From contig JAHJSM010000001.1 of assembly GCA_018830295.1 (NCBI GenBank), forward strand, positions 129,980 to 193,979: 64,000 nt of DNA. The letters are read 5' to 3'. The position numbers and the translations under genes are program-made. Below the pieces are notes generated by a model that did no database searches, was not told the DNA's origin, and was given only the letters and a program-made list of their open reading frames with translations. The stretch is from Patescibacteria group bacterium. GTDB lineage: Bacteria > Patescibacteriota > Minisyncoccia > Portnoybacterales > UBA2143. Shown here in pieces: positions 16,238 through 58,029 of this stretch (position 1 is the first letter of the stretch; every line of letters begins with the position of its first letter).

Positions 16238-16354
16238 ATTTTTATGCTTGACAAGCGATTAATTTATTGATACCCTATTTAATAAGGAATTGCTTCCAAG
16301 TTGAACTGTGGCGTTTATCGTCGCGTTTCCGTAAGGAATAAACTTGGAAGTTTT

Positions 16355-38218: not shown

Positions 38219-38224
38219 ATAGTT

Positions 38225-44560: not shown

Positions 44561-45400
44561 TTACTTAATTGGTCTGACTTTAGTTTTTTGGCCAAAAAAC
44601 TTTAAATAATCCTTTCTCACTCCACAACAATAAGACGATAAAGAACAACGCTCGCATTCTATCATTTTTATCTTTTCCCTCAAAGAATATTCTGGTTTTT
44701 CGCCACGGCTTATTTTTTGATAATCAATGTGATGCTCCTTATATTCTTCTAAATAGCAAGGGGGAATGTGGTCAATAATAAATTTTATATCAAATTTTTG
44801 GCATTTCCTAAATGCTTCCAATAAAAAAGGTCTCGCTTTTTTATAACTGATTAAAATTTCGGGATTTTCCCCAGTCGCTCCTATTATTTTTATAAAACTA
44901 AATTGGATATATTCCACTTTTGGAAAATTTTTATTAACAAAAACAACATAGTTTTTTAAGCGCTTATAATTTAAAGAATTAACAATGCAAGTTAAGCGAA
45001 AATTCGCTCTTCTTTCTTGTAGATTTTTTATTCCTATTATTTTTTTATTGAACAATCCTTTGGTTTGAGTTATTTGGTTATGCGCTGAAGAAATATGAGA
45101 AGGAAAATTTATATTAAACAAATCCACACCAGAATTAATAAGATCAATCGCTAATTTTTTATAATAACAAGTTATTCCGTTGGTCTGCAATTCAACAAAT
45201 AATTTCTTATCTTTCGCTTTTCTAATTACCCAAAAAAGATCCTTCGATAAAGTCGGTTCTCCGCCACTTATAACCAAACCGCTTTTTTCTTGATTAATTA
45301 TCTGCTTAAAAAATTCTTTTTCCAACTGGTCTTTTCTCCCTTTAGCCGAACAAAAAAGACAGTTTTGGTTGCATTGATTTGTGATAGAAATAATACTCAT
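44561..45400 (-). CDS. Radical SAM protein (family 1, short)
   Basis: NQCNQNCLFC, SGGEPTLSK, C-terminal CERCSLSSYCCGVRKDYLKFFG. Confidence 0.7.
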   Translation of the reverse strand: MSIISITNQCNQNCLFCSAKGRKDQLEKEFFKQIINQEKSGLVISGGEPTLSKDLFWVIRKAKDKKLFVELQTNGITCYYKKLAIDLINSGVDLFNINFPSHISSAHNQITQTKGLFNKKIIGIKNLQERRANFRLTCIVNSLNYKRLKNYVVFVNKNFPKVEYIQFSFIKIIGATGENPEILISYKKARPFLLEAFRKCQKFDIKFIIDHIPPCYLEEYKEHHIDYQKISRGEKPEYSLREKIKMIECERCSLSSYCCGVRKDYLKFFGQKTKVRPIK

Positions 45401-45432: not shown

Positions 45433-47757
45433 TTAATTATTGTTTTTTAACAATTTTTTTATCAATTTGTCTTTATCCCAAAAAAATAGCCCGTAAATAA
45501 ACATTTTTCTAAAATCTTTTGGTAAAAAATATACTTTGTCTTTATTAATTTTGACTTTTTTAAACTTTTTTAACGCTAAAAATGCATGTTTAAAACTAGG
45601 AATTAAACTCTTGCTAAAAAAAAATTTAAACTCTTTTTTGGAAACAGGCCGCCCTTTTGTAAAATGGCCTAACACATAATCTCTCATATCATCTATTAAT
45701 TTACAAGGAACCCCTTGATAGACGCGGTTTGAGGCGTTAAATCCATCTTTAATTGGCGAATTATTTTGGTATCTATTAACTCCGATTATTTTTGAAACGG
45801 AAAAAGAGCCGATGCCAAACATTGAACATGGACGAGGAATATTATAATAAGGAGTTATTTGTTCTGTCTTATCTTTGGGTGAAAAATTAACACCATACCA
45901 TTCGCTTAGACAAATCTTTTTAGAATCCGGATAAGTATAGTTAAATTTAATAGCTATTTGCTGTAGCAACTTTAATGTCCGGTCAATTTTTTTTTGAATT
46001 TGAAGATAAAAAGTTGCTTCATTATCTTTAAAATACTTTTTTAAATAAAAATTTGTCGGTTTCAACGGAAATAAAGAAATATTATCTGGCTTTAATTTGA
46101 TAATATTTTGAAAACTCTTCCTAACTGTTTCGTGGCTATCGCCCTTAAGGCCGATCAACAAATCCACATTAACTGTAAATCCAAAAGATTGCGCGTCTAA
46201 TATTGATTTTTTTACTAATTCATAAGTTTGATAGCTACGATTGGCATATTTTAACACTCTTGGGTCTAAAGATTGAACCCCAAAACTAACCCTGTCAAAA
46301 CCAAACTTCTTAATAATTTGCAATTTTTTGCGAGTAGTAGTAAAAGGATTACACTCATATGTTTTTTCGCCCAAATTACTAAAATTATAATCGTTAAATA
46401 AATTAACTAAAAAATTATCTAATTGCTTTTCATTTAATATAGAGGGACTGCCTCCACCAATATAAATATTATTGAATTCCACACCCGAAAAAACATCTTT
46501 GTAAAAAGCCATCTCTTTAATAATCCGCGCGAGATAACGATTAACTGATTCCTTGTCTTTGGTTACTACCGAAGGAGTCATACAGTAACTACACTTTGAT
46601 TCGCAAAATGGTATGTTAATGTAATAGCTAAGTAAATCTTTTCTTTTGCCTTTCTTAATCTCTTTAATGGCTTTTACCCACATTTTTTTAATCTCAAAAG
46701 CGTTATATGAATTAAATTTATTTAATCGAAAGAACATTGAATTGAAAAAGTATTTTGTTGCTTCTGATCTTTGATAAGATAAAAAATCAGTTAGCCTGGT
46801 TAACGCTTCTAAATGAGCGGTTGTTTTGTCTATTTTTATGGAATCTATTGGATGATGAAAGTTTCCAGTTGCTTTAATCTTTATTCCATCCAGATTTAAC
46901 CATGACTTTATCTCCGGCGTTTTAATATAGTTCAGATAACTTTTGTGCATTCCTAAGCAATATTTTTTTAATTTACATTTTTGGCACTCCGCCAAATAAA
47001 CAACTTCTTCGGCAGGCAATGTTCTCCAAGCATATGGCCATAAAGACGGCTCCAGTGCGCAAAGCGGAAAATGATATAAGCGAAAGTCATTAAATAATTT
47101 AAAATATTTTTTAGCTTCTTCCAGCGCGGGCTGTATCTGCGTATATGTAATCCCGACATTGTTTTTGTTGACTTCCGCTTTTCCTTCAAACTCCAAAAAA
47201 ATTAAAACAATCCTATCGGCTTCAGTAAAATTATTTTTAATGAATTCAAAAAAATTTGGTATTATCGCTAAATTATGGCGATTGGCGATAATTCTTATTT
47301 CAACCTTTTGATTTACTCCTTTCTCGCGCAACAGCTTTTTTAACCCCTCTATTGTTTGGTGAAAACTGCCGGGTATCTGCGTGATGCCGTCATGAATTTC
47401 GGCATTATGGCCATGCAGAGGAATGGCAAAATCAATATTCTGATAAGACAAGCATTCTTTTCTAAAACTGTCATAGAAAAACATTCTTCCGTTGGTTAAA
47501 ATCCTTATAATAACTTTTGGAAATCTTTTCCGTATGTAGTTTAGTAGTTTAAATAAATAAGGACAAATTGTTGTTTCGCCGCCAGTTAAACTTATGCTCC
47601 CAAGTGTTGTGTAGTTATTCTCTTTTAACTTTTCTTCAAAATAATTAACAACTGATTCAAAAGTAAAACAATCTTCTTGGATCATTTCTTCCGTGTTGGT
47701 GCACATTACACAGCGATTATTACACTTGTTCCAAATTGGCATTTCAATATGATTCAT
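45433..47757 (-). CDS. Fusion of two radical SAM domains: N-terminal family 1 domain plus C-terminal HemN-like (class C radical SAM methyltransferase-like) domain
   Basis: Domain 1: WNKCNNRCVMC, TGGETTICP, LHGHNAEIHD, CQKCKLKKYCLGMHKSY. Domain 2: YINIPFCESKCSYCM and IYIGGGSPS (HemN/HemW-type). Confidence 0.75.
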   Translation of the reverse strand: MNHIEMPIWNKCNNRCVMCTNTEEMIQEDCFTFESVVNYFEEKLKENNYTTLGSISLTGGETTICPYLFKLLNYIRKRFPKVIIRILTNGRMFFYDSFRKECLSYQNIDFAIPLHGHNAEIHDGITQIPGSFHQTIEGLKKLLREKGVNQKVEIRIIANRHNLAIIPNFFEFIKNNFTEADRIVLIFLEFEGKAEVNKNNVGITYTQIQPALEEAKKYFKLFNDFRLYHFPLCALEPSLWPYAWRTLPAEEVVYLAECQKCKLKKYCLGMHKSYLNYIKTPEIKSWLNLDGIKIKATGNFHHPIDSIKIDKTTAHLEALTRLTDFLSYQRSEATKYFFNSMFFRLNKFNSYNAFEIKKMWVKAIKEIKKGKRKDLLSYYINIPFCESKCSYCMTPSVVTKDKESVNRYLARIIKEMAFYKDVFSGVEFNNIYIGGGSPSILNEKQLDNFLVNLFNDYNFSNLGEKTYECNPFTTTRKKLQIIKKFGFDRVSFGVQSLDPRVLKYANRSYQTYELVKKSILDAQSFGFTVNVDLLIGLKGDSHETVRKSFQNIIKLKPDNISLFPLKPTNFYLKKYFKDNEATFYLQIQKKIDRTLKLLQQIAIKFNYTYPDSKKICLSEWYGVNFSPKDKTEQITPYYNIPRPCSMFGIGSFSVSKIIGVNRYQNNSPIKDGFNASNRVYQGVPCKLIDDMRDYVLGHFTKGRPVSKKEFKFFFSKSLIPSFKHAFLALKKFKKVKINKDKVYFLPKDFRKMFIYGLFFWDKDKLIKKLLKNNN

Positions 47758-47777
47758 GATGTCTTATATGTTAACTA

Positions 47778-48266
47778 TTAAACCCAACCATGCGCTTTGC
47801 CAAAGGCCATAATCACTAAAGCGCAAACTGGCTTATCTTTACATATTATTTCTTCCGTCGCGATATTTATTTCTTTTTTAAATTTTTCTTTTCTATATTT
47901 CATTATTTCGCTCAATGAATTTTTTATGTCTTTCTCAACTTTTTTTTTGCTATTGCCTTGAATTTCAACAACTATTCCATTCCCTGAATTACCTTCTTCT
48001 TTTATCCAACCTAAGCCAGCGCAAATGGTTTCTCCTTTATTAAGGGTTCTGGATTGAGATAAAATAACATAAACTTTCTTGCCGTAATCGTTATAAGAAT
48101 AATTCGGTTTTTTATTTATAATCTTAGAGTTGTGGGGCAGAACCGACGACAAGCAAATTAAATTTAGATTAATCATACCTGCTTTTTCCAACGCTTTGCA
48201 GTAAGCGCCTTCTTCAGTGGCTCCCTCGCCGCTTCCTTGGGTTAAAAAAATTTTTATTTTTTTCAT
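47778..48266 (-). CDS. pdaD: Pyruvoyl-dependent arginine decarboxylase (PdaD)-family protein
   Basis: TQGSGEGATEEGAYCKALEKAGMINLNLICLSSVLP aligns with M. jannaschii PdaD [36 protein letters not shown], including the Ser-Ser self-cleavage site. Length is about 160 aa. Confidence 0.7.
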   Translation of the reverse strand: MKKIKIFLTQGSGEGATEEGAYCKALEKAGMINLNLICLSSVLPHNSKIINKKPNYSYNDYGKKVYVILSQSRTLNKGETICAGLGWIKEEGNSGNGIVVEIQGNSKKKVEKDIKNSLSEIMKYRKEKFKKEINIATEEIICKDKPVCALVIMAFGKAHGWV

Positions 48267-48277
48267 TAATTTTAATT

Positions 48278-49147
48278 TTAATTAAACTTTACTAATACGG
48301 CGTGATATTTATTGTTTATTTTTAATTTTTTTAAAATTTTATTTCTCTTAAAAATTGTGATTTTATCATTGCTAACCAGACAATGAGTACCCAAGAGAAA
48401 CTCTTTTAATTGATTTTCCTTAAAAGAATCATTGCAACGAGGATATTTCCTATAAAGAATTACATCTTTATAATAGATGCTGGAATTATTTACAACGCCT
48501 TTGAAAAGTAACTGGATTCTTTTATGAAAAAAATCATTTGCGTCGCTGTCTTGCAGAGCATCAAACCAAATTAATAATGGAAAACGCAAATTTTTTTCAA
48601 TTTCAGCGGCATAATTCGGGTTTTCCTTCCTAACAGCTTCTAATATATTTTTATTGTATTTCAACGCATTTTTACAATGGTACGAACAGGGTTGATAGAA
48701 ACTTAAACTAAAGTTTAAACCATATAAAAAATTATTTAAAAGAAAATTCTTTTTCTTTTCAGTTATCCTTTTAAAAAGAATCTCTTTCTTTGTTTTTTCG
48801 TCATAATTTCCAACATCAAAATTTAAATAATTATCTATACAACACTTTGGATAGCCCAACGCTTCGGAAAAATCTCTTAATTGAGATACTGTGGCAAAAT
48901 TACTATATTCTGGATCTTCCTTAGCAAATCTTTGGGCAATTTTTTTGTCTTTGGAAATATAAATATCAAAAAAAATTTCCTTATTAAAAACAGAGTTTTT
49001 TCTCTTAACTTTATTAGAAATTGCAAACAAGCCCTGATTTTGACAAAATTGATTAATCTTCTTGAGCTCGTCTAATGTACTACAACATTCCTTCGTTAAT
49101 TGTTTTAAGCCATATTTAACAGCTATAAAATCTATTTTTTGCAACAT
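48278..49147 (-). CDS. Hypothetical Cys-containing protein (289 aa)
   Basis: ORF in operon context. Scattered Cys (KECCST, YPKCCIDNY, YQPCSYHCKN). No recognised domain. Confidence 0.4.
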   Translation of the reverse strand: MLQKIDFIAVKYGLKQLTKECCSTLDELKKINQFCQNQGLFAISNKVKRKNSVFNKEIFFDIYISKDKKIAQRFAKEDPEYSNFATVSQLRDFSEALGYPKCCIDNYLNFDVGNYDEKTKKEILFKRITEKKKNFLLNNFLYGLNFSLSFYQPCSYHCKNALKYNKNILEAVRKENPNYAAEIEKNLRFPLLIWFDALQDSDANDFFHKRIQLLFKGVVNNSSIYYKDVILYRKYPRCNDSFKENQLKEFLLGTHCLVSNDKITIFKRNKILKKLKINNKYHAVLVKFN

Positions 49148-49163
49148 TTAATTTGTAATGATA

Positions 49164-50285
49164 TTACCGCGCTATTTTCCAAATAAGATTTAATAAATGT
49201 CTAAAGTTGTCTTTATCTTGGGATAAATTAATCCTTATATATCCGCTTTTATTAAACACTTCACCGGGCATTATTGAAATACTATATTCCTTGGCTAATA
49301 TTTCAGCTAATTTAAAAGTGTTTATGCCTCTTATTCTGGGAAAACAGACGCAACCGCCTTCCAGTTCGTAATTTAAAATTATTTTTCTTTCTTTTACTAA
49401 TCTGCTATTTTTTAACGCGAACCAATTATCTTTAATATTTCTTATGTAATCTTTGGTAATTTTGTTTATATTATTTATGGCCAACCCTGTTATTGTCTCA
49501 CTAATTAATGGAACACAATGTGTTGTATGGTCTTTATAATCCCTTATTTTGCTTAATGTTTTTTTGTCGGCGATCATCCAGCCAACTCTGATTCCCACAA
49601 TTCCGGCGCATTTAATAATAGAACCGGTGGCAAATACTCTGTCATAAAAATTTTTAACTATTCCATAACCAGAGAAAAATATTTTTTTTGAAGTATTGAT
49701 TGGTAAAAATCTATAATGTTCGTCAAAAAGAATATCAACCTTATTTTTCTTTGCCGCCTCGGCAATTTCAATTATTTCTTTTTTGTTAAAAGTAAAGCCC
49801 AATGGATTGTGAGGAATGTTAAGAATTAATAAATTCGGCTTAATTTTATTTATTTTAAAAATCAATTTTTCCAATAATTCCGCTTTCCCCTTATATTGCA
49901 ACGCGTCCAAAAAATGCACTTTTGCCTTTAGCGCTTGAGGGATAAGATAGAGTAAAGGAAAAGCCGGATACAAAAGAAGAACTTTTGATTTACTATTTAA
50001 AAAAATATTAAAAAAGATATACAAAGCTTCCGAGGTTCCGCTGGTTACTATTATATCATTTGGCTTTACGCTTTCGTACGCGCGCGATATTTTCTTTCTT
50101 AAATCTAAGGAACCCCAAGTAGAGTTATTTCCTAAAAAAATATTATTGAGAAATGAATTATTTATTTTAATTTTTTGTAAAAATTTGTCCAAGGTAAAAT
50201 CAGGAACGCCGCTTTCAGAAAAATTATGCTTACAGGGTCCAGTTTTAATAAACCAATCTTCCATTTTAACTTTTTTTAAAATCAT
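49164..50285 (-). CDS. PLP-dependent class I/II aminotransferase-fold enzyme (HisC/CobD-like)
   Basis: TSGTSEALY, DEHYRF, and a putative PLP-Lys in GSIIKCAGIVGIRVGWMIA. Confidence 0.6.
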   Translation of the reverse strand: MILKKVKMEDWFIKTGPCKHNFSESGVPDFTLDKFLQKIKINNSFLNNIFLGNNSTWGSLDLRKKISRAYESVKPNDIIVTSGTSEALYIFFNIFLNSKSKVLLLYPAFPLLYLIPQALKAKVHFLDALQYKGKAELLEKLIFKINKIKPNLLILNIPHNPLGFTFNKKEIIEIAEAAKKNKVDILFDEHYRFLPINTSKKIFFSGYGIVKNFYDRVFATGSIIKCAGIVGIRVGWMIADKKTLSKIRDYKDHTTHCVPLISETITGLAINNINKITKDYIRNIKDNWFALKNSRLVKERKIILNYELEGGCVCFPRIRGINTFKLAEILAKEYSISIMPGEVFNKSGYIRINLSQDKDNFRHLLNLIWKIAR

Positions 50286-51202
50286 ATTTCTTGAGTGCGG
50301 TTAAATTTTTGAATTAATTTTAAATTTCTCTTTTCTTTATTGTTGTTGCGAAAAAGAATATTACGATTAGATGATATGCTCTCATCATCCAATCCTACAA
50401 AAATTGGATATTTTTTAAGATCAACTTTATTTTTTATCTCTGATAAAATTTGCGCGATATTTTCTAAAGTTATTAATTTGTATTTTTTTCGATTGTATAA
50501 ATTTTCAAGCAAGGTTCCATGGGTAATAAAAATTGGGAAAAGAGCAATTCTTCCTTTATATTTATGTTTTTCGTAAAAATTGATAACTCTTAAAATTGAA
50601 TTTTTTGTTTCTTTTAAGGAATCTTCTATAGATAGCATTGGAACTCCCGCTAAGATATAAGAGCATATTGAAACGCTTATCTCTGACAGTTTCTTAACAC
50701 ACTCCTCGTAATCTTTCAATGCTAAATTTTTTTTTAAAATCACATTACGAACATAATTTGAATAGGACTCTAATCCGATTCCGTATTCTAACCCTATATC
50801 TCCATTTAATATTCCCTTTATTTGCCGTAATTTATCTAAATCGCAATATTCCGTCCTCCCCTCGATTAAAACACTCTTAATGTTTTTTAACTTTTTAATT
50901 TCTTCCATTAATCTTAATACTTGTTTATAATCAATTTGTTTTTCGTCTAAAATAGAGCCTGAACTTAAAATATCAATACGCCTGATTTTGTTTTGCTCTA
51001 CGATTTTTTTAAGAGATTTAAATTGGGATACTATGTTATAGTTCTTAATATTTTTACAATGGACATCAAAACCACAAATAAAACATCTCTTCCCCTGAAT
51101 AATTTTTCGACAAGGAGGAGTTTTAAAAACTATCATTAATCTATTTTGTGTTTTTCCGTTTATAAATATCTTGTTTGTCGACCAATAAGCCGGTTTTTCC
51201 AT
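50282..51202 (-). CDS. Putative radical SAM-like protein with non-canonical CX8CX2C motif (YhcC/TIGR01212-like?)
   Basis: PPCRKIIQGKRCFICGF. The Gly-rich segment ILSSGSIL lies about 40 aa after the cluster motif. Gene is within the radical SAM operon. Confidence 0.4.
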   Translation of the reverse strand: MEKPAYWSTNKIFINGKTQNRLMIVFKTPPCRKIIQGKRCFICGFDVHCKNIKNYNIVSQFKSLKKIVEQNKIRRIDILSSGSILDEKQIDYKQVLRLMEEIKKLKNIKSVLIEGRTEYCDLDKLRQIKGILNGDIGLEYGIGLESYSNYVRNVILKKNLALKDYEECVKKLSEISVSICSYILAGVPMLSIEDSLKETKNSILRVINFYEKHKYKGRIALFPIFITHGTLLENLYNRKKYKLITLENIAQILSEIKNKVDLKKYPIFVGLDDESISSNRNILFRNNNKEKRNLKLIQKFNRTQEI

Positions 51203-51227
51203 AAATTTATAAAATAATCACAAGTAA

Positions 51228-52280
51228 TTATTTCCAATTCAATAATTTAAGCGATTTTATTTCATCATTAACATTTTTCGCGGAATAAAACTTTAGATAC
51301 TCCCTTTGAATGCCATTGCATTTATTTCTATAATAACAATTCTGGCATTCGTCTACATAATAAAACATTTTGTCGTAAGCGCCAATAAGTTCTTTTTTAT
51401 TAATAAGCCAATTTTCAGTCGGACCAGAATAATAAGTTTCATATATATTTGGATCGTACTGCGCTAAAACGCCATTAAAATGACAAATATGAAAATTATA
51501 AATAAAATACTTCTTTTTTTTTAAGTCATTTTGATTAAACGCGCAAATCGGAAAACCTTCAAAATGAATTTTTCCAGGATATTTATTAACTACTTGAATA
51601 ATTTTTTTACTAGCTCCAGTTAGTTTATATTTTAAGCTCTTATAGGGGCTGCCTATAGCGTGACCAAAAGGCATTAAATTAATTATTCTAACACCTTCTT
51701 GATAATCTTTTTTGTTATTTGAAAATTGGAACAAAAAATCCAATATTTTAATTATATTAGAATCTTTTTTTAAAATAATATCTATGCCGCTTATATTTAA
51801 ATAACTATTAACGGCTCTACTAAAGCCGCGGCGCCACTTCTCGAATATATCGCTCCCATGTCCCGACCAATTACTAAATGTTTTTTGATTATAAAAATTC
51901 ACGGAAACAGCTATGTATACTTTATGTAAATGTTTTTTAACCGACTCTAATTTTTCCCATACTGAATCGTTGGCAAAAGCTAGTCCGTTAGTGTTAAAGG
52001 TTATATAATTTACTTTAGCGTTATTAAATGAAAATTTGATTATTTCAGCAATATCCGGATGAAGAATAACCTCTTGGCCCGTAAAGATAATATTATCCAA
52101 ACCAAGGCTAACCGCCTTAGTTATTTTAATCTTTAATACATCCAACGGAACAAAAGATTTTTTTCTTACTTGAGGTAATTTGCAAATCTCGCACTGAAAA
52201 TTACAAACATCCGAGGCATGAATATACGCTGCCTTTATCGCGTGAAAATTATAAAACGGATAATTATTGTATTTAATCAT
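51228..52280 (-). CDS. Radical SAM protein (family 1)
   Basis: SDVCNFQCEIC, and C-terminal CQNCYYRNKCNGIQREYLKFY. Confidence 0.7.
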   Translation of the reverse strand: MIKYNNYPFYNFHAIKAAYIHASDVCNFQCEICKLPQVRKKSFVPLDVLKIKITKAVSLGLDNIIFTGQEVILHPDIAEIIKFSFNNAKVNYITFNTNGLAFANDSVWEKLESVKKHLHKVYIAVSVNFYNQKTFSNWSGHGSDIFEKWRRGFSRAVNSYLNISGIDIILKKDSNIIKILDFLFQFSNNKKDYQEGVRIINLMPFGHAIGSPYKSLKYKLTGASKKIIQVVNKYPGKIHFEGFPICAFNQNDLKKKKYFIYNFHICHFNGVLAQYDPNIYETYYSGPTENWLINKKELIGAYDKMFYYVDECQNCYYRNKCNGIQREYLKFYSAKNVNDEIKSLKLLNWK

Positions 52281-52291
52281 AGCTTAAGTCG

Positions 52292-53314
52292 TTAAGATAA
52301 TTTCGCGCGTATCGCTTTGATTTCTGCTTCAACTTTTTTCCGCCCAAAAATTTTTACATATTCCTCAAAAATGCCATTACACTCATTAATAAAATAACAG
52401 CCCTTGCAAGCGTTTAAATGATATCTGTATTTTTTCATTTTATCTTTTATTAATTTAATATTTTTTGAAGTTTTTAGCGTGGAATCCATTCCTGAAGAAA
52501 TATTATGCGTCATGAAAAGATCGTAGCAATTTATTTGCTTTTTGTCATTCAAAAAAATTTGGCCGGCAATATCTATTATATGCACATTATTTTTTGTTTT
52601 CTCCAAAATTTCTTTTGGGAAAATACAAAAAGGATAATCTTCAATCTCAACTGATTCAAAATTGTCCAATAAATCAATAAAATTTAATCCAAAATTACTT
52701 AATTCTTTTAGCGGAACAACTAATTTTTTAAAAATATGTTTAGCGCTTCCTATTGGCTGGATATTTAACAAATCAATATTCTTTACTCCTAATTTTATGT
52801 CGCGCGTTATTAATTGACGGAGATAAGGAAAGTTTTTTTTCCAAACAAGATGAGTAACTAAAACTGATTTTGGATTTACGGAAAGACAATTTCTTATTCC
52901 CCGTGTGGTTTTTATAAAACTGCCCTTATTTTTTGTCCAAGATTCATGTAATTTTGCGTTGTGGCCATAAAGCGTAATATTAATACTATCAAAAATAGAA
53001 AAAACTTTTTTCGCAAAAGTATTATTCGCTAATGTTATCCCATTTGAAGTTAAATATATTTTTTTATACATCTCTCTCGCCTTTTCGGATAGTATTAGAA
53101 AATCCGGATGAATTGTTGGCTCCCCGCCAATAATTTCAATTACATGATATCCAGCCCGAGCCCCTGCTTTTATATCTTTAAGTATCTCAGCCGTTGAGCG
53201 CGGTTTATATAAACGCGGCGTTCCGCAACCAAGACAGCGGCAATTACAAGGACCTTCTGTTGTGACGGTAAAAACTTTATTCCACTTTTTTTGCTTAACT
53301 ACATTGTTATTCAT
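52292..53314 (-). CDS. Radical SAM protein (family 1)
   Basis: GPCNCRCLGC, IGGEPTIHP, YGHNAKLHE...KGSF, C-terminal CKGCYFINECNGIFEEY. Confidence 0.75.
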   Translation of the reverse strand: MNNNVVKQKKWNKVFTVTTEGPCNCRCLGCGTPRLYKPRSTAEILKDIKAGARAGYHVIEIIGGEPTIHPDFLILSEKAREMYKKIYLTSNGITLANNTFAKKVFSIFDSINITLYGHNAKLHESWTKNKGSFIKTTRGIRNCLSVNPKSVLVTHLVWKKNFPYLRQLITRDIKLGVKNIDLLNIQPIGSAKHIFKKLVVPLKELSNFGLNFIDLLDNFESVEIEDYPFCIFPKEILEKTKNNVHIIDIAGQIFLNDKKQINCYDLFMTHNISSGMDSTLKTSKNIKLIKDKMKKYRYHLNACKGCYFINECNGIFEEYVKIFGRKKVEAEIKAIRAKLS

Positions 53315-53323
53315 AAGATTGGT

Positions 53324-54367
53324 TTATTTATTAAATATTTCCGAATATTTAATAAATCGTTTCAAAAGTTTTTTATAGATAAACTTATCTCCGTCAAATA
53401 CACTGCCGTACATAAAATTATTGTTAATCTTGGAAGTGGCGCCATCGCCGATACCTAACAGGCTGGCATTATGGACTCTGTTATTGTAAATTTGAACATT
53501 TATCGCGTCAAACCGATCTGCCAACCCGCTAAAAGGGAATGCCCCATAACCAGCTCTTTCAAGTATTTCCAATCCTTGATTTTTCCAAGATATTCTTTCT
53601 TTCACCGTTGGACCCTTATATGTGCCATCATGCCAAACTAAAGTCGCTGGGTTATGTTCAAAATAATACAAATGTATCTGGTTTGGCTTCATATCAACAA
53701 TTTGAACAACATCATTCAAGAAAGAAGTTTGCGATTGATCCTTTAAGCCGCAAATCAACTCTAAATTTACCAAAATTCCAAGCTTCTTGCATTTTTCAAC
53801 CAACTCTTTGATTGACTTTCTTGGAGTAAAAGATCGATTGTTTGATCCTAATACTTTTTTATCCAACGATTGCGCGCCTATAGTTAATCTATTTATGTTG
53901 TATTTTTTTAAAATTTCAAGCTTGTTTTTATTTAATGTTTTTGGACAGCCCTCAAATGAAGAATGGGCGTTTTTAAAATTAAAATATTTATGTAAATTTT
54001 TTAATAATTCATCTAAAGCATTTTCAGAGAGAATTGAAGGAGTGCCGCCTCCGAAATAAAGAGTGTCAAAACCTACCCCATTAAAAATTGAAGCAAATCT
54101 TCTAATTTCTTTAATTAAGCCGTTTGTATATTTATCCGCTTTTTCCCGCGAACTGGGGATTGAAAAACAATCGCAAAAATAACAAGCGCTTTGACAATAA
54201 GGTATATGGATATAGAGACCTATTTTATTATTATTTTTTTTTATAAATTTTATCTCCTCTTCCCATTTATCTAATATTAAATCAGCGGCCAAATCTTTCG
54301 CCTTTTTGCCAAACATAAACTCCTGATAATATTTATATTTTTTGTTGATGCAGCTAATAATTTTCAT
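53324..54367 (-). CDS. HemN-like radical SAM protein (class C radical SAM methyltransferase-like / HemW-like)
   Basis: LYIHIPYCQSACYFCDC and LYFGGGTPS. Confidence 0.75.
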   Translation of the reverse strand: MKIISCINKKYKYYQEFMFGKKAKDLAADLILDKWEEEIKFIKKNNNKIGLYIHIPYCQSACYFCDCFSIPSSREKADKYTNGLIKEIRRFASIFNGVGFDTLYFGGGTPSILSENALDELLKNLHKYFNFKNAHSSFEGCPKTLNKNKLEILKKYNINRLTIGAQSLDKKVLGSNNRSFTPRKSIKELVEKCKKLGILVNLELICGLKDQSQTSFLNDVVQIVDMKPNQIHLYYFEHNPATLVWHDGTYKGPTVKERISWKNQGLEILERAGYGAFPFSGLADRFDAINVQIYNNRVHNASLLGIGDGATSKINNNFMYGSVFDGDKFIYKKLLKRFIKYSEIFNK

Positions 54368-54418
54368 TTACGCCTAAGGCCTTTTGTAAAATGTTTTTAA
54401 GCAAAATTAAGTATCTTA

Positions 54419-57400
54419 TTATAATGCATTGCTCTTATTGATTAAATTATAAACCTTTTTCTCGTCAAAAAAGAATAAAGAACATGCGTATCTCTCAAGC
54501 GGATCTGTGGGTAAAAACACCAAATCTCCCTTAAATTTTATTTTGTTTAACTTTTTTAAGGAATTAATTGCCTCTTTAAAATTTGTTTTAAAGTCAGCAT
54601 TAAAAAACTTTTTAAAACTTTTTTGCGAAAAACACAGCCGGCAAGATAACTGCTGCAGGATAAAATACCTCATTTCATCCTTAAGATTGTATTCTAGCGC
54701 CCAGTAATTTTTTTCATTTGGATTAAAACCAAAGCTTTTTTCTCTGGAAATAAGATGATGCTGCGAAGAATTAAAAATATACGAACTTGCCCTGGTGCCT
54801 AAGGCGAATAATGAGCAAGGAGAAGAAAAGTTTATTGGAGAAGTATAGTCATAATCATACTTATACGACGCTTTAAAATTTTTATTGTAAAATACAGGTT
54901 CAGCGGATGAAAAAATTTCAAACCCCTTATCTATAATATAATACTCTAATTTATCTTCCATTGATTTTAATTTTTGTCGCGCTTCACCAGCTTTTTTATT
55001 AAGTTTTTTATTAAAAGAACAATAATTATTATTACAATACTTTTCCAAATATTCTTGCGTCGGCTTTAAGGGATATATTGTAATCGTATCGGGACGCATT
55101 TTGGTTAATTCTATAAAACTATCCACCACTATTTCGGCTGTATCATTCTTAAGCCCAACCATTATGTCGGTATTTACCTCAAAACCAAATTCCTTGGCCT
55201 TGGAAATAAGTTCTGGTAAAAATTTATAATCTCCATAATTTCTTTTCGTATAAGTTCGCACTTTATTATTAAAAGTTTGCACGCCCATACTTATTCGATT
55301 AAATCCAAATTGTTTAAGTAATTTCAACTTTTTTATTGAAATGCTTTGGGGATTAGATTCAAAAGTTTTTTCTCCATCTTCTTTAAATTTAAAATATCTG
55401 AATAAAATACTTAACAACCCGCTAAGCTGCTTTTCTGATAATATTGAAGGCGTGCCACCACCAATATATAAGCTACTAAATTCTGCGTCAGTAAATGTAT
55501 TTTTAAAAAATTTAATTTGCTTAATTAAGTTTTTAATATAATCCTCTAATTTTTCTTTATTGGCAATCTCTGAATAATACATACAATAACTGCACTTAGA
55601 CTCGCAAAATGGAATGTGGATATAAAAATTTAAAACATCATTTACTTTTTTGTTTTTAATTAAATGGATATGGCTTTCCCATTTCTTCCTTATTAGATCA
55701 GCGCCAACAAACCTTTTTTCTCCCACCCAATGCATCAAATCAGCAAGAAAAAAAATATTATAGTATGGTTTATAATCTTTTAAAAAGTTTTTGTATAATT
55801 CATAATTTTTTTTAGGAGAGTTTTTTTTCTTGATAACAGGTTTAAATTCTTTCCACCCAAAAATTTCCGGATATTCGCGCCATGGACCTTCGCAAATTGA
55901 ATAAAAATCACATTTTTTACAATTAGAACCCCTGCTTTTGCCACGATTAACTCTGTATTTCTTGTAATCATCAATTTTGAACATATCTTCAACCACCATT
56001 GCATCAGGTATGATTTGCTCAGCAATATATTTTTCATAATCCTTCATAAAACAATAAGGTATTGCTTCTGTCATTACTCTTTTGCCGGCTTTTATGCCAA
56101 TATCTAATCCCTTTTTTACATATGGCATAATCTCCGACTTTTTTGGCACAATTAATTTTCTATTTTTCCAAGCGGCGCCTGCTATATGAACAAATGCAAA
56201 TTGAAACTGATCTACATTTAAATCAACCAATAGTTTTGCTATTTTAGGCAGATAGCGATAATTAAATTTTGTAATCACCGTGTTCGTTATGACTCTCTGG
56301 TTTAAACTTTTTAAATTTTTAATACCTTGAATGGTTTGGTCAAAACTGCCTTTTACATTAGTCAAATAATCATGTAACTTTCCTGTATGTCCGTGAACGG
56401 CTGGCGAAAACTCATTTGCCCCAGCTTCTATTGTTTTGCGACAAAATTCTTTATACGCGAACATGCGGCCATTGGTTTGGACCTGAATAATTTGATACCC
56501 CAATTTTTTCGCACGCCTTATTAAATCCAAAAAATTAGGATGTATCGTGGGCTCGCCGCCAGTAAAAACGACTGATTGGCAACTTTCCTTTGCTTGAATT
56601 AATTCTTTTATAATCTCCGATTTTTTTCTAAACAAACATTTTTTTCTTTTGTCGCCTTGTACACAAAAACAACAATGATTATTACATTGGTATCCTATTT
56701 TTATATCTATTCTCTTATTCTCCTTCAGCTTTAATCCTTCTTTCTCTGCTATATTGGATTTATTTTTCATTGAATCAACAAAATTATTAAGAGTATTATC
56801 AATTGCTTTATTTGATTGTAAGATTTTATGGTCAAATAATTCCTTTGTATTTAATTCAATTTTATTAATTTCTTTATGAAAATCCAAATTTTTCAAACAT
56901 TCTAAGATATTATTATCCTTAATATTGCTAATTTTAAATTTTTTCTTAACGGACTGAAATTCTTTTAACATAATAGCGTTGGTAAAAAAAACATCACCAT
57001 TGCAATCAACAACCATCCCAGTATTAAAGAAGAATAAATCGTTATCTATGTCAACATTTTTGACATAGATTTCTCTATGCTTTTTTAAAAATTCTGATAC
57101 GAAATTTAGCTGTCTTTCTAAAATTTTTATTTTTTGAAAGGACCATGGTCTATAAGCTGCCGGTAAAAAATTAAACCCCTTAACGCCTAAATTATGTACA
57201 TAAACAAAATTTTGGAAAAACTTATCCACGGTATTCGGAGCTATCACCATGTTTACAATCACGCGAGATTGATTATTCTTGATTAAATTGATTGTTTTCT
57301 GATAAGTTTGAGGAGAAATACCTTTTCTATTTAGCATTTGAGAAGTTTTATCTCCATCAATACTAATCGAAAGATTCACTTTATTTTCTTTAAGCCAGCT

Positions 57401-57688
57401 AAAAATATTATCATCCAATAAAACGCCGTTAGTGCATAATTCAATATCTATCTTATGACTTTTTTTTCTAACATAAGCAATGATATTTTTTAACAAATCA
57501 ATTTTTAAGAGGGGCTCACCGCCAAAAATTTTTATTTTGCCTTTGTTATCGCCCAATAAACACAAATATAAATCAATTGCCTTAAAAGCAATTGATTTGT
57601 TGATAAATATATTTTTTTTTAGCACCGCGCAATACTTGCAATCTAGATTACATTGGTTGGTGACAATAATTATTAATGGATACTTCAT
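54419..57688 (-). CDS. Triple radical SAM-domain fusion protein (1089 aa): anSME-like domain plus family 1 domain plus HemN-like domain
   Basis: Domain 1: TNQCNLDCKYC, FGGEPLL. Domain 2: YQCNNHCCFC, FTGGEPTIHP, VHGHTGKLHD, CKKCDFYSICEGPWREY. Domain 3: NFYIHIPFCESKCSYCM, LYIGGGTPS. Confidence 0.75.
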   Translation of the reverse strand: MKYPLIIIVTNQCNLDCKYCAVLKKNIFINKSIAFKAIDLYLCLLGDNKGKIKIFGGEPLLKIDLLKNIIAYVRKKSHKIDIELCTNGVLLDDNIFSWLKENKVNLSISIDGDKTSQMLNRKGISPQTYQKTINLIKNNQSRVIVNMVIAPNTVDKFFQNFVYVHNLGVKGFNFLPAAYRPWSFQKIKILERQLNFVSEFLKKHREIYVKNVDIDNDLFFFNTGMVVDCNGDVFFTNAIMLKEFQSVKKKFKISNIKDNNILECLKNLDFHKEINKIELNTKELFDHKILQSNKAIDNTLNNFVDSMKNKSNIAEKEGLKLKENKRIDIKIGYQCNNHCCFCVQGDKRKKCLFRKKSEIIKELIQAKESCQSVVFTGGEPTIHPNFLDLIRRAKKLGYQIIQVQTNGRMFAYKEFCRKTIEAGANEFSPAVHGHTGKLHDYLTNVKGSFDQTIQGIKNLKSLNQRVITNTVITKFNYRYLPKIAKLLVDLNVDQFQFAFVHIAGAAWKNRKLIVPKKSEIMPYVKKGLDIGIKAGKRVMTEAIPYCFMKDYEKYIAEQIIPDAMVVEDMFKIDDYKKYRVNRGKSRGSNCKKCDFYSICEGPWREYPEIFGWKEFKPVIKKKNSPKKNYELYKNFLKDYKPYYNIFFLADLMHWVGEKRFVGADLIRKKWESHIHLIKNKKVNDVLNFYIHIPFCESKCSYCMYYSEIANKEKLEDYIKNLIKQIKFFKNTFTDAEFSSLYIGGGTPSILSEKQLSGLLSILFRYFKFKEDGEKTFESNPQSISIKKLKLLKQFGFNRISMGVQTFNNKVRTYTKRNYGDYKFLPELISKAKEFGFEVNTDIMVGLKNDTAEIVVDSFIELTKMRPDTITIYPLKPTQEYLEKYCNNNYCSFNKKLNKKAGEARQKLKSMEDKLEYYIIDKGFEIFSSAEPVFYNKNFKASYKYDYDYTSPINFSSPCSLFALGTRASSYIFNSSQHHLISREKSFGFNPNEKNYWALEYNLKDEMRYFILQQLSCRLCFSQKSFKKFFNADFKTNFKEAINSLKKLNKIKFKGDLVFLPTDPLERYACSLFFFDEKKVYNLINKSNAL

Positions 57689-57732
57689 AACGCTTCATAT
57701 TCCAATTCTGTTAATTATTTGTCTATATTTTT

Positions 57733-58029
57733 TTACCACGAACCGTGAGAACCGTGGGAACCGTGGGAACCGTGGGAACCGTGGGAACCGTGGGAAGAAT
57801 GCGAACCGTGCGAAGCGTGGGAACAATGAGTTGGACAGGGAGTACAACAGTTACATGTCCCAGCCATAGTAGGATCAGGCTTCATTAAGCCGCCGCTAGC
57901 TAGTCCAATAGTTATCAAAGCCAACCCAATTTTTCGAATGCTTTTTTTACTAATTTTCCCCTCTTCTTCGTTTAAAAAATTTCTAAGATTTTTTTTAATT
58001 TTGGGAACTTGATGGTTTTTATTTTTCAT
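57733..58029 (-). CDS. His-Xaa-Ser repeat precursor-like peptide (HxsA-like; candidate RiPP precursor), with internal hydrophobic anchor
   Basis: C-terminus ...GTCNCCTPCPTHCSHASHGSHSSHGSHGSHGSHGSHGSHGSW. Hand translation of the reverse complement was verified through the stop. Hydrophobic segment IGLALITIGLASGGL after a 33-aa basic N-region. Confidence 0.65.
   Translation of the reverse strand: MKNKNHQVPKIKKNLRNFLNEEEGKISKKSIRKIGLALITIGLASGGLMKPDPTMAGTCNCCTPCPTHCSHASHGSHSSHGSHGSHGSHGSHGSHGSW
57741..57830. repeat. Perfect 9-nt tandem repeat (GGAACCGTG)n encoding (HGS)n
   Basis: gaaccgtg(g/a)gaaccgtgggaaccgtgggaaccgtgggaaccgtgggaaccgtggga... with at least 6 perfect and 3 degenerate units. Confidence 0.85.

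What the first reader, a model, noticed from the sequence alone, without database searches (positions are those of the whole stretch)
45433..57688. Multi-radical-SAM-domain fusion proteins (2 and 3 complete radical SAM domains per polypeptide)
The 774-aa protein (45433-47757) contains a complete family 1 radical SAM domain (CNNRCVMC ... CQKCKLKKYC) followed by a complete HemN-like domain (CESKCSYC, GGGSPS). The 1089-aa protein (54419-57688) contains three: an anSME-like domain (CNLDCKYC, FGGEPLL), a family 1 domain (CNNHCCFC ... CKKCDFYSICEG) and a HemN-like domain (CESKCSYC, GGGTPS). Each domain has its own SAM-cleaving CX3CX2C cluster. Fusions of two radical SAM domains are rare and three is exceptional. 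It implies obligatory sequential or processive chemistry on one substrate.
Basis: seen in the sequence. Interest (0 to 1): 0.7.

Follow-up and report, generated by a model that had tools for sequence, protein, structure and literature searches.

The report
Triple radical-SAM fusion in Hxs cluster
Two genuine enzymes that carry two and three complete radical-SAM catalytic domains on one chain sit in a 21-kb, 13-radical-SAM-domain version of the His-Xaa-Ser peptide-maturation system of an uncultured Patescibacteria genome. They arose by fusing neighbouring genes that are still separate in related genomes.

Summary
Both ORFs (minus strand) are uninterrupted. The 1089-aa protein has three CX3CX2C motifs and the 774-aa protein has two, each heading its own radical SAM core in Pfam, NCBIfam and AlphaFold2. 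An artefact is excluded: the triple ORF is intact in three further independent assemblies at 74-85% identity, and its linkers vary in frame.

The context is an expanded His-Xaa-Ser (Hxs) system: HxsD, HxsD-like, HxsB, a 292-aa protein, an HxsA4 precursor with about ten HxS repeats, then the triple fusion and ten more radical SAM domains. The triple is d1 (PapB/HxsB-like core without SPASM cysteines), d2 (HxsC-like with a four-Cys auxiliary site) and d3 (HemN-like).

In relatives the same modules, in the same order after the precursor, are three genes, d1-d2|d3, or d1|d2-d3. So this is stepwise fusion of collinear genes. The halves of the 774-aa protein also occur alone.

"Exceptional" is overstated: of 253 relatives retrieved, 112 have two, 26 three and 7 four motifs. 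"Obligatory processive chemistry" is not shown. The chemistry is unknown.

Verdict: a new variant of a known kind; interest is moderate to high.

The parts
60569..61015 (-). HxsD (148 aa)
   Evidence: TIGR03976 63.2 bits, above the cutoff of 50
60375..60575 (-). HxsD-like small protein (66 aa, TTG start)
   Evidence: NF038315 HxsD_rel 73.8 bits, above the cutoff of 41. It is conserved at this position in L001, L007-L010 and other loci.
58924..60378 (-). HxsB, radical SAM/SPASM maturase (484 aa)
   Evidence: TIGR03978 519.3 bits, above the cutoff of 370, full length. Pfam Radical_SAM plus SPASM.
58052..58930 (-). 292-aa Cys-containing protein with an N-terminal hydrophobic helix; no family match
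   Evidence: No Pfam, NCBIfam or PADLOC hit. Conserved between HxsB and the precursor in L001, L002, L008 and L009.
57733..58029 (-). HxsA4-type precursor (98 aa). It has a charged leader, a hydrophobic helix, a Cys-rich CNCCTPCPTHC stretch, and about ten His-Xaa-Ser repeats ending in W.
   Evidence: NF038313 HxsA4 65.2 bits, above the cutoff of 55. A 9-bp tandem repeat spans 57740-57824 with 9.4 copies. Homologous precursors occur in more than 20 loci.
54419..57688 (-). 1089-aa triple radical SAM fusion (d1-d2-d3), NCBI MBU2579525.1
56759..57688 (-). d1 (residues 1-310). A SPASM-family-type radical SAM core (PapB/HxsB/CteB/anSME-like) without SPASM cysteines. CNLDCKYC at residue 13, FGGEPLL.
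   Evidence: On its own it scores PapB 108 bits and HxsB 97 bits, both below their cutoffs. PDB matches are CteB 5WGG and anSME 4K36. Only two further, non-conserved Cys lie after residue 200.
56720..56758 (-). d1-d2 linker (residues 311-323)
   Evidence: pLDDT below 50. It shows in-frame substitutions and a one-residue indel among the three triple homologues.
55814..56719 (-). d2 (residues 324-625). An HxsC/HxsC4-like radical SAM domain. CNNHCCFC at residue 335, TGGEPT, and four invariant extra Cys (546, 590, 593, 599; nt 55892-56053) that probably bind an auxiliary Fe-S cluster.
   Evidence: HxsC4 171 bits (cutoff 500) and HxsC 112 bits (cutoff 268). The invariant Cys columns hold across 29 homologues. 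PDB matches are BlsE 7VOB, GDGT-MAS and PqqE.
55739..55813 (-). Helical connector between d2 and d3 (residues 626-650)
   Evidence: Helix 625-642 in the model. The stand-alone d3 gene of L008 starts a few nt after the stop of d1-d2 and includes this segment.
54419..55738 (-). d3 (residues 651-1089). A HemN-like radical SAM domain with its C-terminal domain. CESKCSYC at residue 695, GGGTPS.
   Evidence: HemZ 149, HutW 148 and HemN 139 bits, all below their cutoffs. Sequence matches to HemN 1OLT and NocN 9P2U. Foldseek against 1OLT gives 421 aligned columns and TM 0.67 normalised to the target.
53324..54367 (-). Stand-alone HemN-like radical SAM protein (347 aa)
   Evidence: 38% identical to d3
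52292..53314 (-). HxsC-like radical SAM protein (340 aa) with C-terminal CX2CX5C
51228..52280 (-). Radical SAM protein (350 aa) with C-terminal CX2CX5C
   Evidence: conserved in L001, L003, L004, L006 and L010
50282..51202 (-). RaSEA (TIGR01210)-like radical SAM protein (306 aa) with a non-canonical Cys motif
   Evidence: TIGR01210 122 bits, below the cutoff of 212
49164..50285 (-). PLP enzyme resembling GntC/VioD (cyclodehydratase / capreomycidine synthase type)
   Evidence: NF041364 222.9 bits, below the cutoff of 415. Pfam Aminotran_1_2.
48278..49147 (-). DUF483 protein (289 aa)
   Evidence: PF04467 30.8 bits, above the cutoff of 25
47778..48266 (-). Pyruvoyl-dependent arginine decarboxylase family protein (162 aa)
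   Evidence: PF01862 90.1 bits
45433..47757 (-). 774-aa double radical SAM fusion, NCBI MBU2579517.1. Collinear with residues 326-1087 of the triple at 31% identity.
46834..47757 (-). N half of the 774-aa protein (residues 1-308). HxsC-like: CNNRCVMC at residue 12, TGGETT, extra Cys 233/258/261/267.
   Evidence: HxsC 187 bits, below the cutoff of 268. It occurs alone as a 310-aa gene in L001 at 82% identity.
45433..46833 (-). C half of the 774-aa protein (residues 309-774). HemN-like: CESKCSYC at residue 385, GGGSPS.
   Evidence: HemZ 153 and HemN 143 bits, both below their cutoffs. It occurs alone as the 473-aa gene P0127 in L088.
44561..45400 (-). HxsC-like radical SAM protein (279 aa)
43316..44560 (-). 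SufS-family cysteine desulfurase (414 aa)
   Evidence: TIGR01979 404.8 bits, below the cutoff of 475. PF00266 368 bits.
43024..43323 (-). 99-aa conserved protein with no family match
   Evidence: conserved in L001 and L004
42084..43019 (-). HxsC/HxsC4-like radical SAM protein (311 aa)
41165..42091 (-). HxsC4-like radical SAM protein (308 aa counted from the internal ATG)
   Evidence: HxsC4 154.7 bits, below the cutoff of 500
40165..41163 (-). Polytopic membrane protein that ends the cluster; weak resemblance to A24 aspartic peptidases
   Evidence: Pfam Peptidase_A24 E=0.0014, below the cutoff. Homologues end 38 of 80 related loci. No BLAST similarity to the window's own prepilin-peptidase-like gene.

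Best explanation
The two ORFs are real multi-domain radical SAM enzymes. They belong to an expanded His-Xaa-Ser (HxsA4-type) peptide-maturation gene cluster (window 40165-61015, minus strand, 13 radical SAM domains) in a Patescibacteria genome.

The 1089-aa protein is the end product of stepwise fusion of three neighbouring genes. In other genomes these genes lie, in the same order, directly downstream of the HxS-repeat precursor gene:
- d1 is a SPASM-family-type peptide-maturase core that has lost the SPASM cysteines.
- d2 is an HxsC-like radical SAM domain with a four-Cys auxiliary site.
- d3 is a HemN-like domain.

The 774-aa protein is an older paralogous fusion of the d2 and d3 types.

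Inferred mechanism. Each domain binds its own [4Fe-4S] cluster and cleaves its own SAM, so one polypeptide can perform two or three different radical reactions. The substrate is most likely the HxsA4 peptide encoded 44 nt upstream (leader, membrane helix, Cys-rich stretch, (S-H-G)n repeats). The modules work as one physical unit on it, and fusion fixes their stoichiometry and proximity.

By analogy with the E. coli HXS system, the HxsC-like domain would be the core catalyst acting on an HxS motif, together with the HxsD-type proteins. By analogy with class C radical SAM methyltransferases such as NocN, the HemN-like domain would add or rearrange a one-carbon unit using a second SAM.

Shown: the domain architecture, the motif integrity, the fusion history and the cluster membership. 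Inferred: the substrate, the complex formation and the chemistry.
For: Architecture and integrity.

Real fusion: independent assemblies L001-L003, in-frame linker evolution, and NCBI single CDSs.

Hxs membership of the cluster. HxsA4 scores 65.2 (cutoff 55), HxsB 519 (cutoff 370), HxsD 63.2 (cutoff 50) and HxsD_rel 73.8 (cutoff 41).

Fusion history, with the same order after the HxS precursor in every case:
- d1|d2|d3 as three genes in L064 (Moraniibacteriota: 303, 298 and 466 aa, with a 4-nt overlap and a 17-nt gap) and in L077 (Schekmanbacteria).
- d1-d2|d3 in L008 (64% identity, 5-nt gap) and L010.
- d1-d2 alone in L004, L007 and L009.
- d1|d2-d3 in L006.

Auxiliary site: the four extra Cys of d2 are invariant in 29 homologues, and the same C..CX2CX5C pattern is present in all seven HxsC-like domains of the cluster.

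Precursor: its leader, helix and (SHG)n architecture are conserved across phyla next to these enzymes.

Published role of HxsB, HxsC and HxsD in maturing HxsA: PMC13128918. Sequence relatives of d3 with solved structures are HemN and the methyltransferase NocN.
Against: - No experiment links these enzymes to HxsA4.
- In L003 the triple fusion has no precursor or HxsB upstream.
- The halves of the 774-aa protein occur singly at the same cluster position in L001 and L088, so the modules are not always needed together.
- No domain reaches the curated cutoff of HxsC, HxsC4, HemN, HemZ, HemW or HutW, so functional transfer from those families is weak.
- The cluster also encodes amino-acid-type enzymes (a GntC/VioD-like PLP enzyme, PvlArgDC, a RaSEA-like protein). 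These could mean that part of the radical SAM set works on a small molecule.
- The pTM of the triple model is only 0.51, so no common active-site chamber can be claimed.
Confidence: 0.65

Rival explanations
1. The fused enzymes, or some of their domains, act on a small molecule rather than on the HxS peptide. For example, they could build an arginine- or lysine-derived unit together with the GntC/VioD-like PLP enzyme, the pyruvoyl decarboxylase and the RaSEA-like protein. That unit might later be attached to the peptide, or it might be an independent product.
For: The sub-module r350 + RaSEA-like + PLP + PvlArgDC is conserved in the window, L001, L004, L006 and L010. L003 carries the triple without an adjacent precursor. 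The closest solved relatives of d2 (BlsE, GDGT-MAS) and d3 (HemN) act on small molecules.
Against: d1, d2 and d3 sit immediately after the HxS precursor in the window, L001, L002, L008, L009, L010, L064 and L077. d1's best family matches are all peptide maturases. Many related loci have d1-d2 and the Hxs front module but no PLP/PvlArgDC genes (L007, L009).
Confidence: 0.2
2. One or more of the fused domains is a catalytically silent scaffold. It would bind the peptide or a partner and keep its cluster only for structure or electron transfer, so the protein performs fewer radical reactions than it has domains.
For: d1 has lost the SPASM cysteines of its family. HemN-family members include non-catalytic or chaperone-type proteins such as HemW and the pseudo-SAM PsgB, both of which appear among the NCBIfam hits.
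Against: All three CX3CX2C triads and the GGE/GGG motifs are conserved from 85% down to about 40% identity, including in the unfused orthologues.
Confidence: 0.12
3. The long ORFs are artefacts: separate genes joined by a sequencing error or an assembly chimera.
For: Split versions of the same modules exist in relatives. The window comes from a metagenome-assembled genome.
Against: The triple ORF is intact in three other independent assemblies at 74-85% identity, with frame-preserving changes in both linkers. Five full-length homologues of the 774-aa protein share 54-61% identity with it. The chance of such open frames is about 1e-38 and 1e-27. The models fold confidently across the d2-d3 junction and the 774-aa junction.
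Confidence: 0.01

Closest known systems
HXS (His-Xaa-Ser) system HxsD-HxsB-HxsC-HxsA: TIGR03976-03979 (Haft & Basu 2011, from my own knowledge); antiphage role shown in E. coli (Li et al. 2026, PMC13128918)
   Same: HxsD, HxsB and an HxS-repeat precursor are present and pass the curated cutoffs. HxsC-like radical SAM domains follow. The logic is the same: a ribosomal HxS-repeat protein matured by paired radical SAM enzymes.
   Different: - The cluster has 19-20 genes and 13 radical SAM domains instead of four genes.
- No domain passes the HxsC cutoff.
- The precursor is a 98-aa HxsA4-type peptide with a membrane helix and no peptidoglycan-binding domain.
- The gene order is D, D-like, B, X, A, then the enzymes.
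- The host is a Patescibacteria genome, whereas 99.7% of described HXS systems are in Pseudomonadota and 99.8% have four genes.
- The HxsB-like and HxsC-like modules are fused to each other and to a HemN-like module.
NCBIfam variant models HxsA4 (NF038313), HxsC4 (NF038332, 'rare') and HxsD_rel (NF038315)
   Same: The precursor passes HxsA4 and the 66-aa protein passes HxsD_rel. d2 and the 308-aa protein align with HxsC4 over its full length.
   Different: d2 scores 171 bits and the 308-aa protein 155 bits against an HxsC4 cutoff of 500, so none is a true HxsC4. I found no publication describing the HxsA4/HxsC4 variant.
FbiC (F0 synthase), a fusion of the radical SAM enzymes CofG and CofH
   Same: One polypeptide carries two complete radical SAM domains. 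Each makes its own 5'-deoxyadenosyl radical for one product. The same pair exists as two separate polypeptides in other organisms (PMC11917521).
   Different: There is no homology: CofG and CofH are not among the listed best family matches of any domain. FbiC has two domains rather than three and acts on a small molecule.
HemN / class C radical SAM methyltransferases (HemN 1OLT, NocN 9P2U, ChuW/HutW)
   Same: d3 and the C half of the 774-aa protein have the CX3CX2C motif, the GGG(T/S)PS motif and the full HemN fold including the C-terminal domain.
   Different: They score below every equivalog cutoff, lack the fourth Cys of the HemN CX3CX2CXC motif, and are fused to another radical SAM domain.
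SPASM/twitch peptide maturases (PapB, CteB, anSME) and two-enzyme maturase pairs such as TrnC/TrnD of thuricin CD
   Same: d1's radical SAM core is closest to these families. Two radical SAM enzymes acting synergistically on one peptide has precedent (title and abstract of PMC12093266).
   Different: d1 has no SPASM cysteines. The partners here are covalently fused and belong to three different radical SAM families.

Membership tests
His-Xaa-Ser (Hxs/HXS) system | Precursor protein with tandem His-Xaa-Ser repeats (HxsA family model) | tested here: met
   NF038313 HxsA4 65.2 bits against a cutoff of 55, with about ten HxS repeats at the C-terminus
His-Xaa-Ser (Hxs/HXS) system | HxsB radical SAM/SPASM maturase | tested here: met
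   TIGR03978 519.3 bits against a cutoff of 370, full length
His-Xaa-Ser (Hxs/HXS) system | HxsC radical SAM maturase passing TIGR03977 or NF038332 | tested here: not met
   The best HxsC score is 190 bits (N half of the 774-aa protein) against a cutoff of 267.9. The best HxsC4 score is 171 bits (d2) against a cutoff of 500. Seven HxsC-like domains are present, but all fall below the cutoffs.
His-Xaa-Ser (Hxs/HXS) system | HxsD small protein | tested here: met
   TIGR03976 63.2 bits against a cutoff of 50, plus HxsD_rel 73.8 bits against a cutoff of 41
His-Xaa-Ser (Hxs/HXS) system | [quoted passage not shown] | tested here: not met
   About 20 genes in the order D, D-like, B, X, A, then the enzymes. 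The 98-aa precursor has no Pfam domain.
His-Xaa-Ser (Hxs/HXS) system | Antiphage activity by blocking DNA entry | not testable with these tools
   PADLOC 2023 gives only generic viperin-type radical SAM hits
Radical SAM superfamily (each fused domain) | CX3CX2C triad at the start of a (beta/alpha)6 core, plus a GGE-type SAM motif | tested here: met
   Five of five domains meet it
SPASM/twitch peptide maturases (d1) | C-terminal Cys-rich SPASM or twitch motif binding auxiliary clusters | tested here: not met
   Only C229 and C264 lie after residue 200 of d1, and neither is conserved among homologues
HemN/HemZ/HemW/HutW equivalogs (d3 and the C half of the 774-aa protein) | Score above the curated equivalog cutoff | tested here: not met
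   d3 scores HemZ 149 (cutoff 321), HutW 148 (cutoff 400), HemN 139 (cutoff 325) and HemW 136 (cutoff 205)
HemN-like fold / class C radical SAM enzymes | Full HemN fold including the C-terminal domain, and the GGGTP motif | tested here: met
   Foldseek against 1OLT gives 421 aligned columns, TM 0.67 normalised to the target, E=1.5e-21. GGGTPS and GGGSPS are present.
HemN-like fold / class C radical SAM enzymes | Binding of a second SAM, or methyl transfer | not testable with these tools
   No residue-level test was run
FbiC-type fused radical SAM pair | Homology to CofG and CofH | tested here: not met
   Neither family appears among the listed best NCBIfam matches (25 per protein) of any domain

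The most novel reading that the evidence does not exclude
The expanded Hxs clusters number at least 563 related loci across Patescibacteria, Elusimicrobia, Omnitrophota, Myxococcota, Spirochaetes and DPANN archaea. They may encode an undescribed class of hyper-modified, membrane-anchored (S-H-G)n peptides. In this reading the fused d1-d2-d3 enzyme is a single-chain, three-reaction radical assembly line that works iteratively along the repeats. The result would be a new cross-linked or carbon-bridged His/Ser-derived residue type, used either as a surface antiphage barrier or as a metal-binding structure.
Probability: 0.25. Interest if true: 0.85.

Novelty: new variant of a known kind. Interest (0 to 1): 0.6.

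Why it matters
Radical SAM enzymology has one well-known fused pair, FbiC. I found no characterised protein with three SAM-cleaving domains.

This case comes with a complete natural series of the same modules: three genes, two kinds of partial fusion, and the full fusion. That series is a Rosetta-stone argument that an HxsB-type, an HxsC-type and a HemN-type radical SAM enzyme act together on His-Xaa-Ser repeat peptides. It also offers ready-made constructs for biochemistry, since the fused form guarantees 1:1:1 stoichiometry.

The finding extends the HXS system well beyond its description. The system was shown in 2026 to be an antiphage defence and was described as essentially proteobacterial with four genes. 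Here it appears in a much larger, taxonomically broad family of clusters with 6-14 radical SAM motifs each, including in ultra-small Patescibacteria genomes, where 21 kb is a large investment.

The chemistry of the HxS modification is still undefined (+8 Da in E. coli). The richer clusters may make it easier to work out.

Tried and rejected
- Assembly or frameshift artefact: rejected.
- Literature searches for 'two/three/multiple/tandem/dual radical SAM domains' returned only FbiC-type mentions and nothing on three-domain proteins. A search for radical SAM + Patescibacteria + RiPP gave only general BGC surveys.
- PADLOC gave only generic viperin-type hits.
- Rfam and tRNA scans of the window found nothing relevant to the cluster.
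- I considered filing d2 as HxsC4 or HxsC and d3 as HemN, HemZ, HutW or HemW. I rejected this because all scores are far below the curated cutoffs.
- I considered d1 as a truncated copy of the cluster's own HxsB. It shares only 29% identity over about 130 residues, and PapB scores higher.
- I considered the terminal membrane protein as a prepilin-type A24 peptidase. The support is only Pfam E=0.0014 and two motifs seen by eye, with no BLAST similarity to the window's PilD-like gene, so I left it as a lead.
- The 50%-identity representative library holds no representative matched in one stretch along the whole d1-d2-d3 query, so that exact order could not be shown to be widespread.
- The inter-domain geometry of the triple is not interpretable (pTM 0.51).

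Full report
OBSERVATION

All genes of the region lie on the minus strand. Given the window's composition, an open frame of 1089 codons has a chance probability of about 1e-38, and one of 774 codons about 1e-27.

The 1089-aa protein has CX3CX2C motifs at residues 13, 335 and 695. The 774-aa protein has them at residues 12 and 385. Pfam Radical_SAM matches three separate stretches in the first protein and two in the second.

I modelled both with AlphaFold2, using alignments of 29 and 12 homologues. Mean pLDDT is 86.8 and 85.4. The triple shows three separate six-stranded beta/alpha cores, and the only disordered segment is the d1-d2 linker (residues 310-323). The double has no disordered linker and a pTM of 0.70.

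Foldseek of the triple model against the PDB gives these best matches:
- HemN (1OLT), 421 aligned columns.
- The peptide maturases CteB and anSME.
- BlsE.

These agree with sequence searches of each domain against PDB chains.

NOT AN ARTEFACT

The identical 1089-aa protein is an NCBI CDS (MBU2579525.1, 'radical SAM protein', Patescibacteria group bacterium, contig 744,622 bp). The 774-aa protein is MBU2579517.1.

The triple architecture is intact in Logan assemblies of three unrelated runs:
- SRR20309470 and SRR19044049: 1088 aa, 85% identity.
- SRR22936141: 1090 aa, 74% identity.

In the three-way alignment both junctions carry substitutions and one-residue indels that preserve the frame. This is what a real but weakly constrained linker looks like.

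The 774-aa protein has full-length homologues at 54-61% identity (P0122-P0126).

WHAT THE DOMAINS ARE

I scanned each domain on its own against NCBIfam.

- d1 (residues 1-310) is closest to the peptide maturases PapB (108 bits) and HxsB (97 bits). It has no SPASM cysteines: only two non-conserved Cys follow residue 200.
- d2 (residues 324-625) aligns end to end with HxsC4 (171 bits, cutoff 500) and with HxsC (112 bits, cutoff 268).
- Besides the triad, d2 has four further Cys (546, 590, 593, 599) that are invariant in 29 homologues.
- The same C...CX2CX5C pattern is present in every HxsC-like domain of the cluster. I read this as a probable auxiliary Fe-S site; that is an inference.
- d3 (residues 651-1089) is HemN-like, scoring HemZ 149, HutW 148 and HemN 139 bits, all below their cutoffs. 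Its solved sequence relatives are HemN and the class C methyltransferase NocN.
- The 774-aa protein is collinear with residues 326-1087 of the triple at 31% identity. It is therefore an old paralogue of the d2-d3 pair.

CONTEXT

The ORFs are part of a His-Xaa-Ser system. Upstream of the triple lie, in order:
- HxsD (63.2 bits, cutoff 50).
- A 66-aa HxsD-like protein (73.8 bits, cutoff 41).
- HxsB (519 bits, cutoff 370).
- A 292-aa protein of unknown family.
- A 98-aa HxsA4-type precursor (65.2 bits, cutoff 55) that ends 44 nt before the triple fusion.

The precursor has a charged leader, a hydrophobic helix, a Cys-rich stretch and about ten H-x-S repeats ending in Trp. The repeats are encoded by a 9-bp tandem repeat.

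Downstream of the triple come:
- a HemN-like protein;
- two radical SAM proteins with the CX2CX5C tail;
- a RaSEA-like radical SAM protein;
- a GntC/VioD-like PLP enzyme;
- a DUF483 protein;
- a pyruvoyl-dependent arginine decarboxylase homologue;
- the 774-aa fusion;
- another HxsC-like protein;
- a SufS-type cysteine desulfurase;
- a 99-aa protein;
- two more HxsC/HxsC4-like proteins;
- a polytopic membrane protein.

That makes 13 radical SAM domains in about 21 kb (40165-61015). The cluster is flanked by type IV pilin-like genes, and its G+C content (about 30%) is lower than that of the adjacent 38-40 kb segment (44%).

HOW THE FUSIONS AROSE

A scan of one genome per GTDB species found at least 563 relatives. 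I analysed the best 80 loci with my own ORF and phmmer script.

A common grammar emerges: HxsD, HxsD-like, HxsB, sometimes the 292-aa protein, an HxS-repeat precursor, then d1/d2/d3-type and many HxsC-like radical SAM genes. The median is 6 and the maximum 14 CX3CX2C motifs per locus. The cluster often ends with a homologue of the membrane protein (38 of 80 loci).

Taxa include many Patescibacteria lineages, Elusimicrobia, Omnitrophota, Myxococcota, Spirochaetes, Schekmanbacteria and Woesearchaeota.

The decisive point is that the three modules of the 1089-aa protein occur, in the same order directly after the precursor, in every possible state:
- Three separate genes in L064 (Moraniibacteriota: 303, 298 and 466 aa, with a 4-nt overlap and a 17-nt gap) and in L077 (Schekmanbacteria).
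- d1-d2 | d3 in L008 (the closest non-triple relative, 64% identity, 5-nt gap) and L010.
- d1-d2 without d3 in L004, L007 and L009.
- d1 | d2-d3 in L006.
- d1-d2-d3 only in the window and L001-L003.

So the triple is the end state of stepwise fusion of collinear neighbouring genes.

The 774-aa protein behaves likewise:
- In L001 only its N half is present at that position (310 aa, 82% identical, followed by a stop).
- In L088 only its C half is present (P0127, 473 aa, starting exactly at residue 309).
- In L004/L005 and elsewhere the two halves are fused.

HOW COMMON MULTI-DOMAIN RADICAL SAM PROTEINS ARE

I counted motifs in the 253 relatives returned by the word-indexed search and by the exhaustive search of 1.84 billion representatives. 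Of these, 112 have two, 26 have three and 7 have four CX3CX2C motifs spaced at least 150 residues apart.

Thirty of the 80 loci hold at least one multi-domain ORF. Most common are d1-d2 (about 610 aa) and d2-d2 (about 630-780 aa, in Saccharibacteria).

The representative library shows no representative matched in one stretch along the whole d1-d2-d3 query. That exact order is therefore rare, even though the phenomenon is not.

In the searchable literature I found only FbiC (CofG+CofH) as a described protein with two radical SAM domains. I found nothing for three.

MECHANISM

Established knowledge: in E. coli, HxsB and HxsC (active sites required) and HxsD mature HxsA. Maturation comprises N-terminal processing and a +8 Da change located in an SHRSS motif of the last HxS repeat. 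HxsC binds HxsD. The mature protein blocks phage DNA entry (PMC13128918).

By inference, the Patescibacteria cluster matures its HxsA4 peptide with a much larger enzyme set.
- The d1-d2 unit is in effect a fused HxsB-type/HxsC-type pair.
- d3 adds a HemN-type module. In peptide and natural-product pathways such modules usually transfer a methyl or methylene unit from a second SAM.
- Fusion most simply fixes stoichiometry and proximity of enzymes that already work together.

It does not prove obligatory or processive chemistry, because unfused and single-module states are viable in relatives. The substrate, the reactions and the physiological role (antiphage barrier, metal binding by the His-rich repeats, or something else) remain untested.

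COMPARISON AND NOVELTY

The cluster meets the HxsA, HxsB and HxsD criteria of the Hxs system. It fails the HxsC cutoffs, the four-gene organisation and the E. coli-type HxsA architecture.

NCBIfam already holds models for HxsA4, HxsC4 ('rare') and HxsD-like proteins, so curators have seen variant systems. I found no publication on them. The 2026 study describes HXS as 99.7% Pseudomonadota and 99.8% four-gene.

I therefore rate the finding as a new variant of a known kind. It is a real and well-supported triple radical SAM fusion whose origin is now explained, set in an undescribed, taxonomically broad, expanded Hxs cluster family.

Interest is 0.6. The architecture and the natural fusion series would interest radical SAM and RiPP specialists and would make the HxS chemistry more tractable. 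Against that, multi-domain radical SAM proteins are recurrent in metagenomic data, and no function is demonstrated.

Noticed in passing
window 40165-41163 (-): The membrane protein that ends the cluster has a weak Peptidase_A24 match (E=0.0014, below cutoff). By eye it has two Asp motifs (SYQD..K.K.N and SAGDAKL) like those of prepilin peptidases. Homologues end 38 of 80 related loci. It could be the leader peptidase of the HxS precursor. It has no BLAST similarity to the window's own PilD-like gene.
   Followed up: partly
window 47778-52280 (-); also L001, L004, L006, L010: A conserved sub-module travels with these clusters: a 350-aa radical SAM protein, a RaSEA-like radical SAM protein, a GntC/VioD-like PLP enzyme and a pyruvoyl arginine-decarboxylase homologue, with or without DUF483. 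This suggests chemistry on an arginine- or lysine-type side chain or on a free amino acid.
   Followed up: partly
window 57733-58029 (-) and more than 20 loci (for example L007 7645-7971, L064 9614-9895): HxS-repeat precursors from distant phyla share a leader (PKIKKxIxxFLxSEEGKIxKK), a hydrophobic helix, (SHG)n with roughly 5 to over 50 HxS triplets per ORF, and usually a C-terminal (Q/S)W. The window's extra CNCCTPCPTHC stretch is shared only with L001, L002 and L008. The exact window sequence is not in the protein collection, so the gene may be unannotated in the public record.
   Followed up: partly
window 57480-57869 (+): A 129-aa ORF with a (GNR)n run is the opposite-strand reading of the HxS repeat DNA (9-bp repeat at 57740-57824). 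It is almost certainly not a gene.
   Followed up: yes
proteins P0036, P0047, P0098, P0273, P0311, P0315, P0317: Relatives of 1231-1406 aa carry four well-separated CX3CX2C motifs. They look like four-domain radical SAM polyproteins, one more domain than the window protein.
   Followed up: partly
L016-L019, L027, L031 (Saccharibacteria): A recurrent fusion of about 630-640 aa joins two HxsC-like domains (d2-d2) inside clusters of 6-9 HxsC-like genes.
   Followed up: no
L001 6977-8005; L003 4380-5402; L006 5183-6160: A gene with faint Peptidase_U32 similarity (about 325-342 aa) follows the triple fusion directly in L001 and L003. In L006 it lies two genes downstream of the d2-d3 gene. It is absent from the window, where only 51 nt separate the triple from the next gene.
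   Followed up: no
window 37212-38782, 62523-62978, 63020-63808 (-): The cluster is flanked on both sides by type IV pilin-like genes (N_methyl motif) and a prepilin-peptidase-like gene. G+C drops from about 44% (38-40 kb) to about 30% inside the cluster, which could indicate an inserted island.
   Followed up: no
window 16292-16355 (+): A DUF3800-IX RNA motif (Rfam RF02968, 50.3 bits against a gathering score of 36.8) is the only Rfam hit in the window. No tRNA genes were found.
   Followed up: no
L003 1-1111: In this relative the triple fusion is preceded by an AAA_28 gene rather than by HxsB and the precursor. The Hxs front module must lie elsewhere or be absent.
   Followed up: partly
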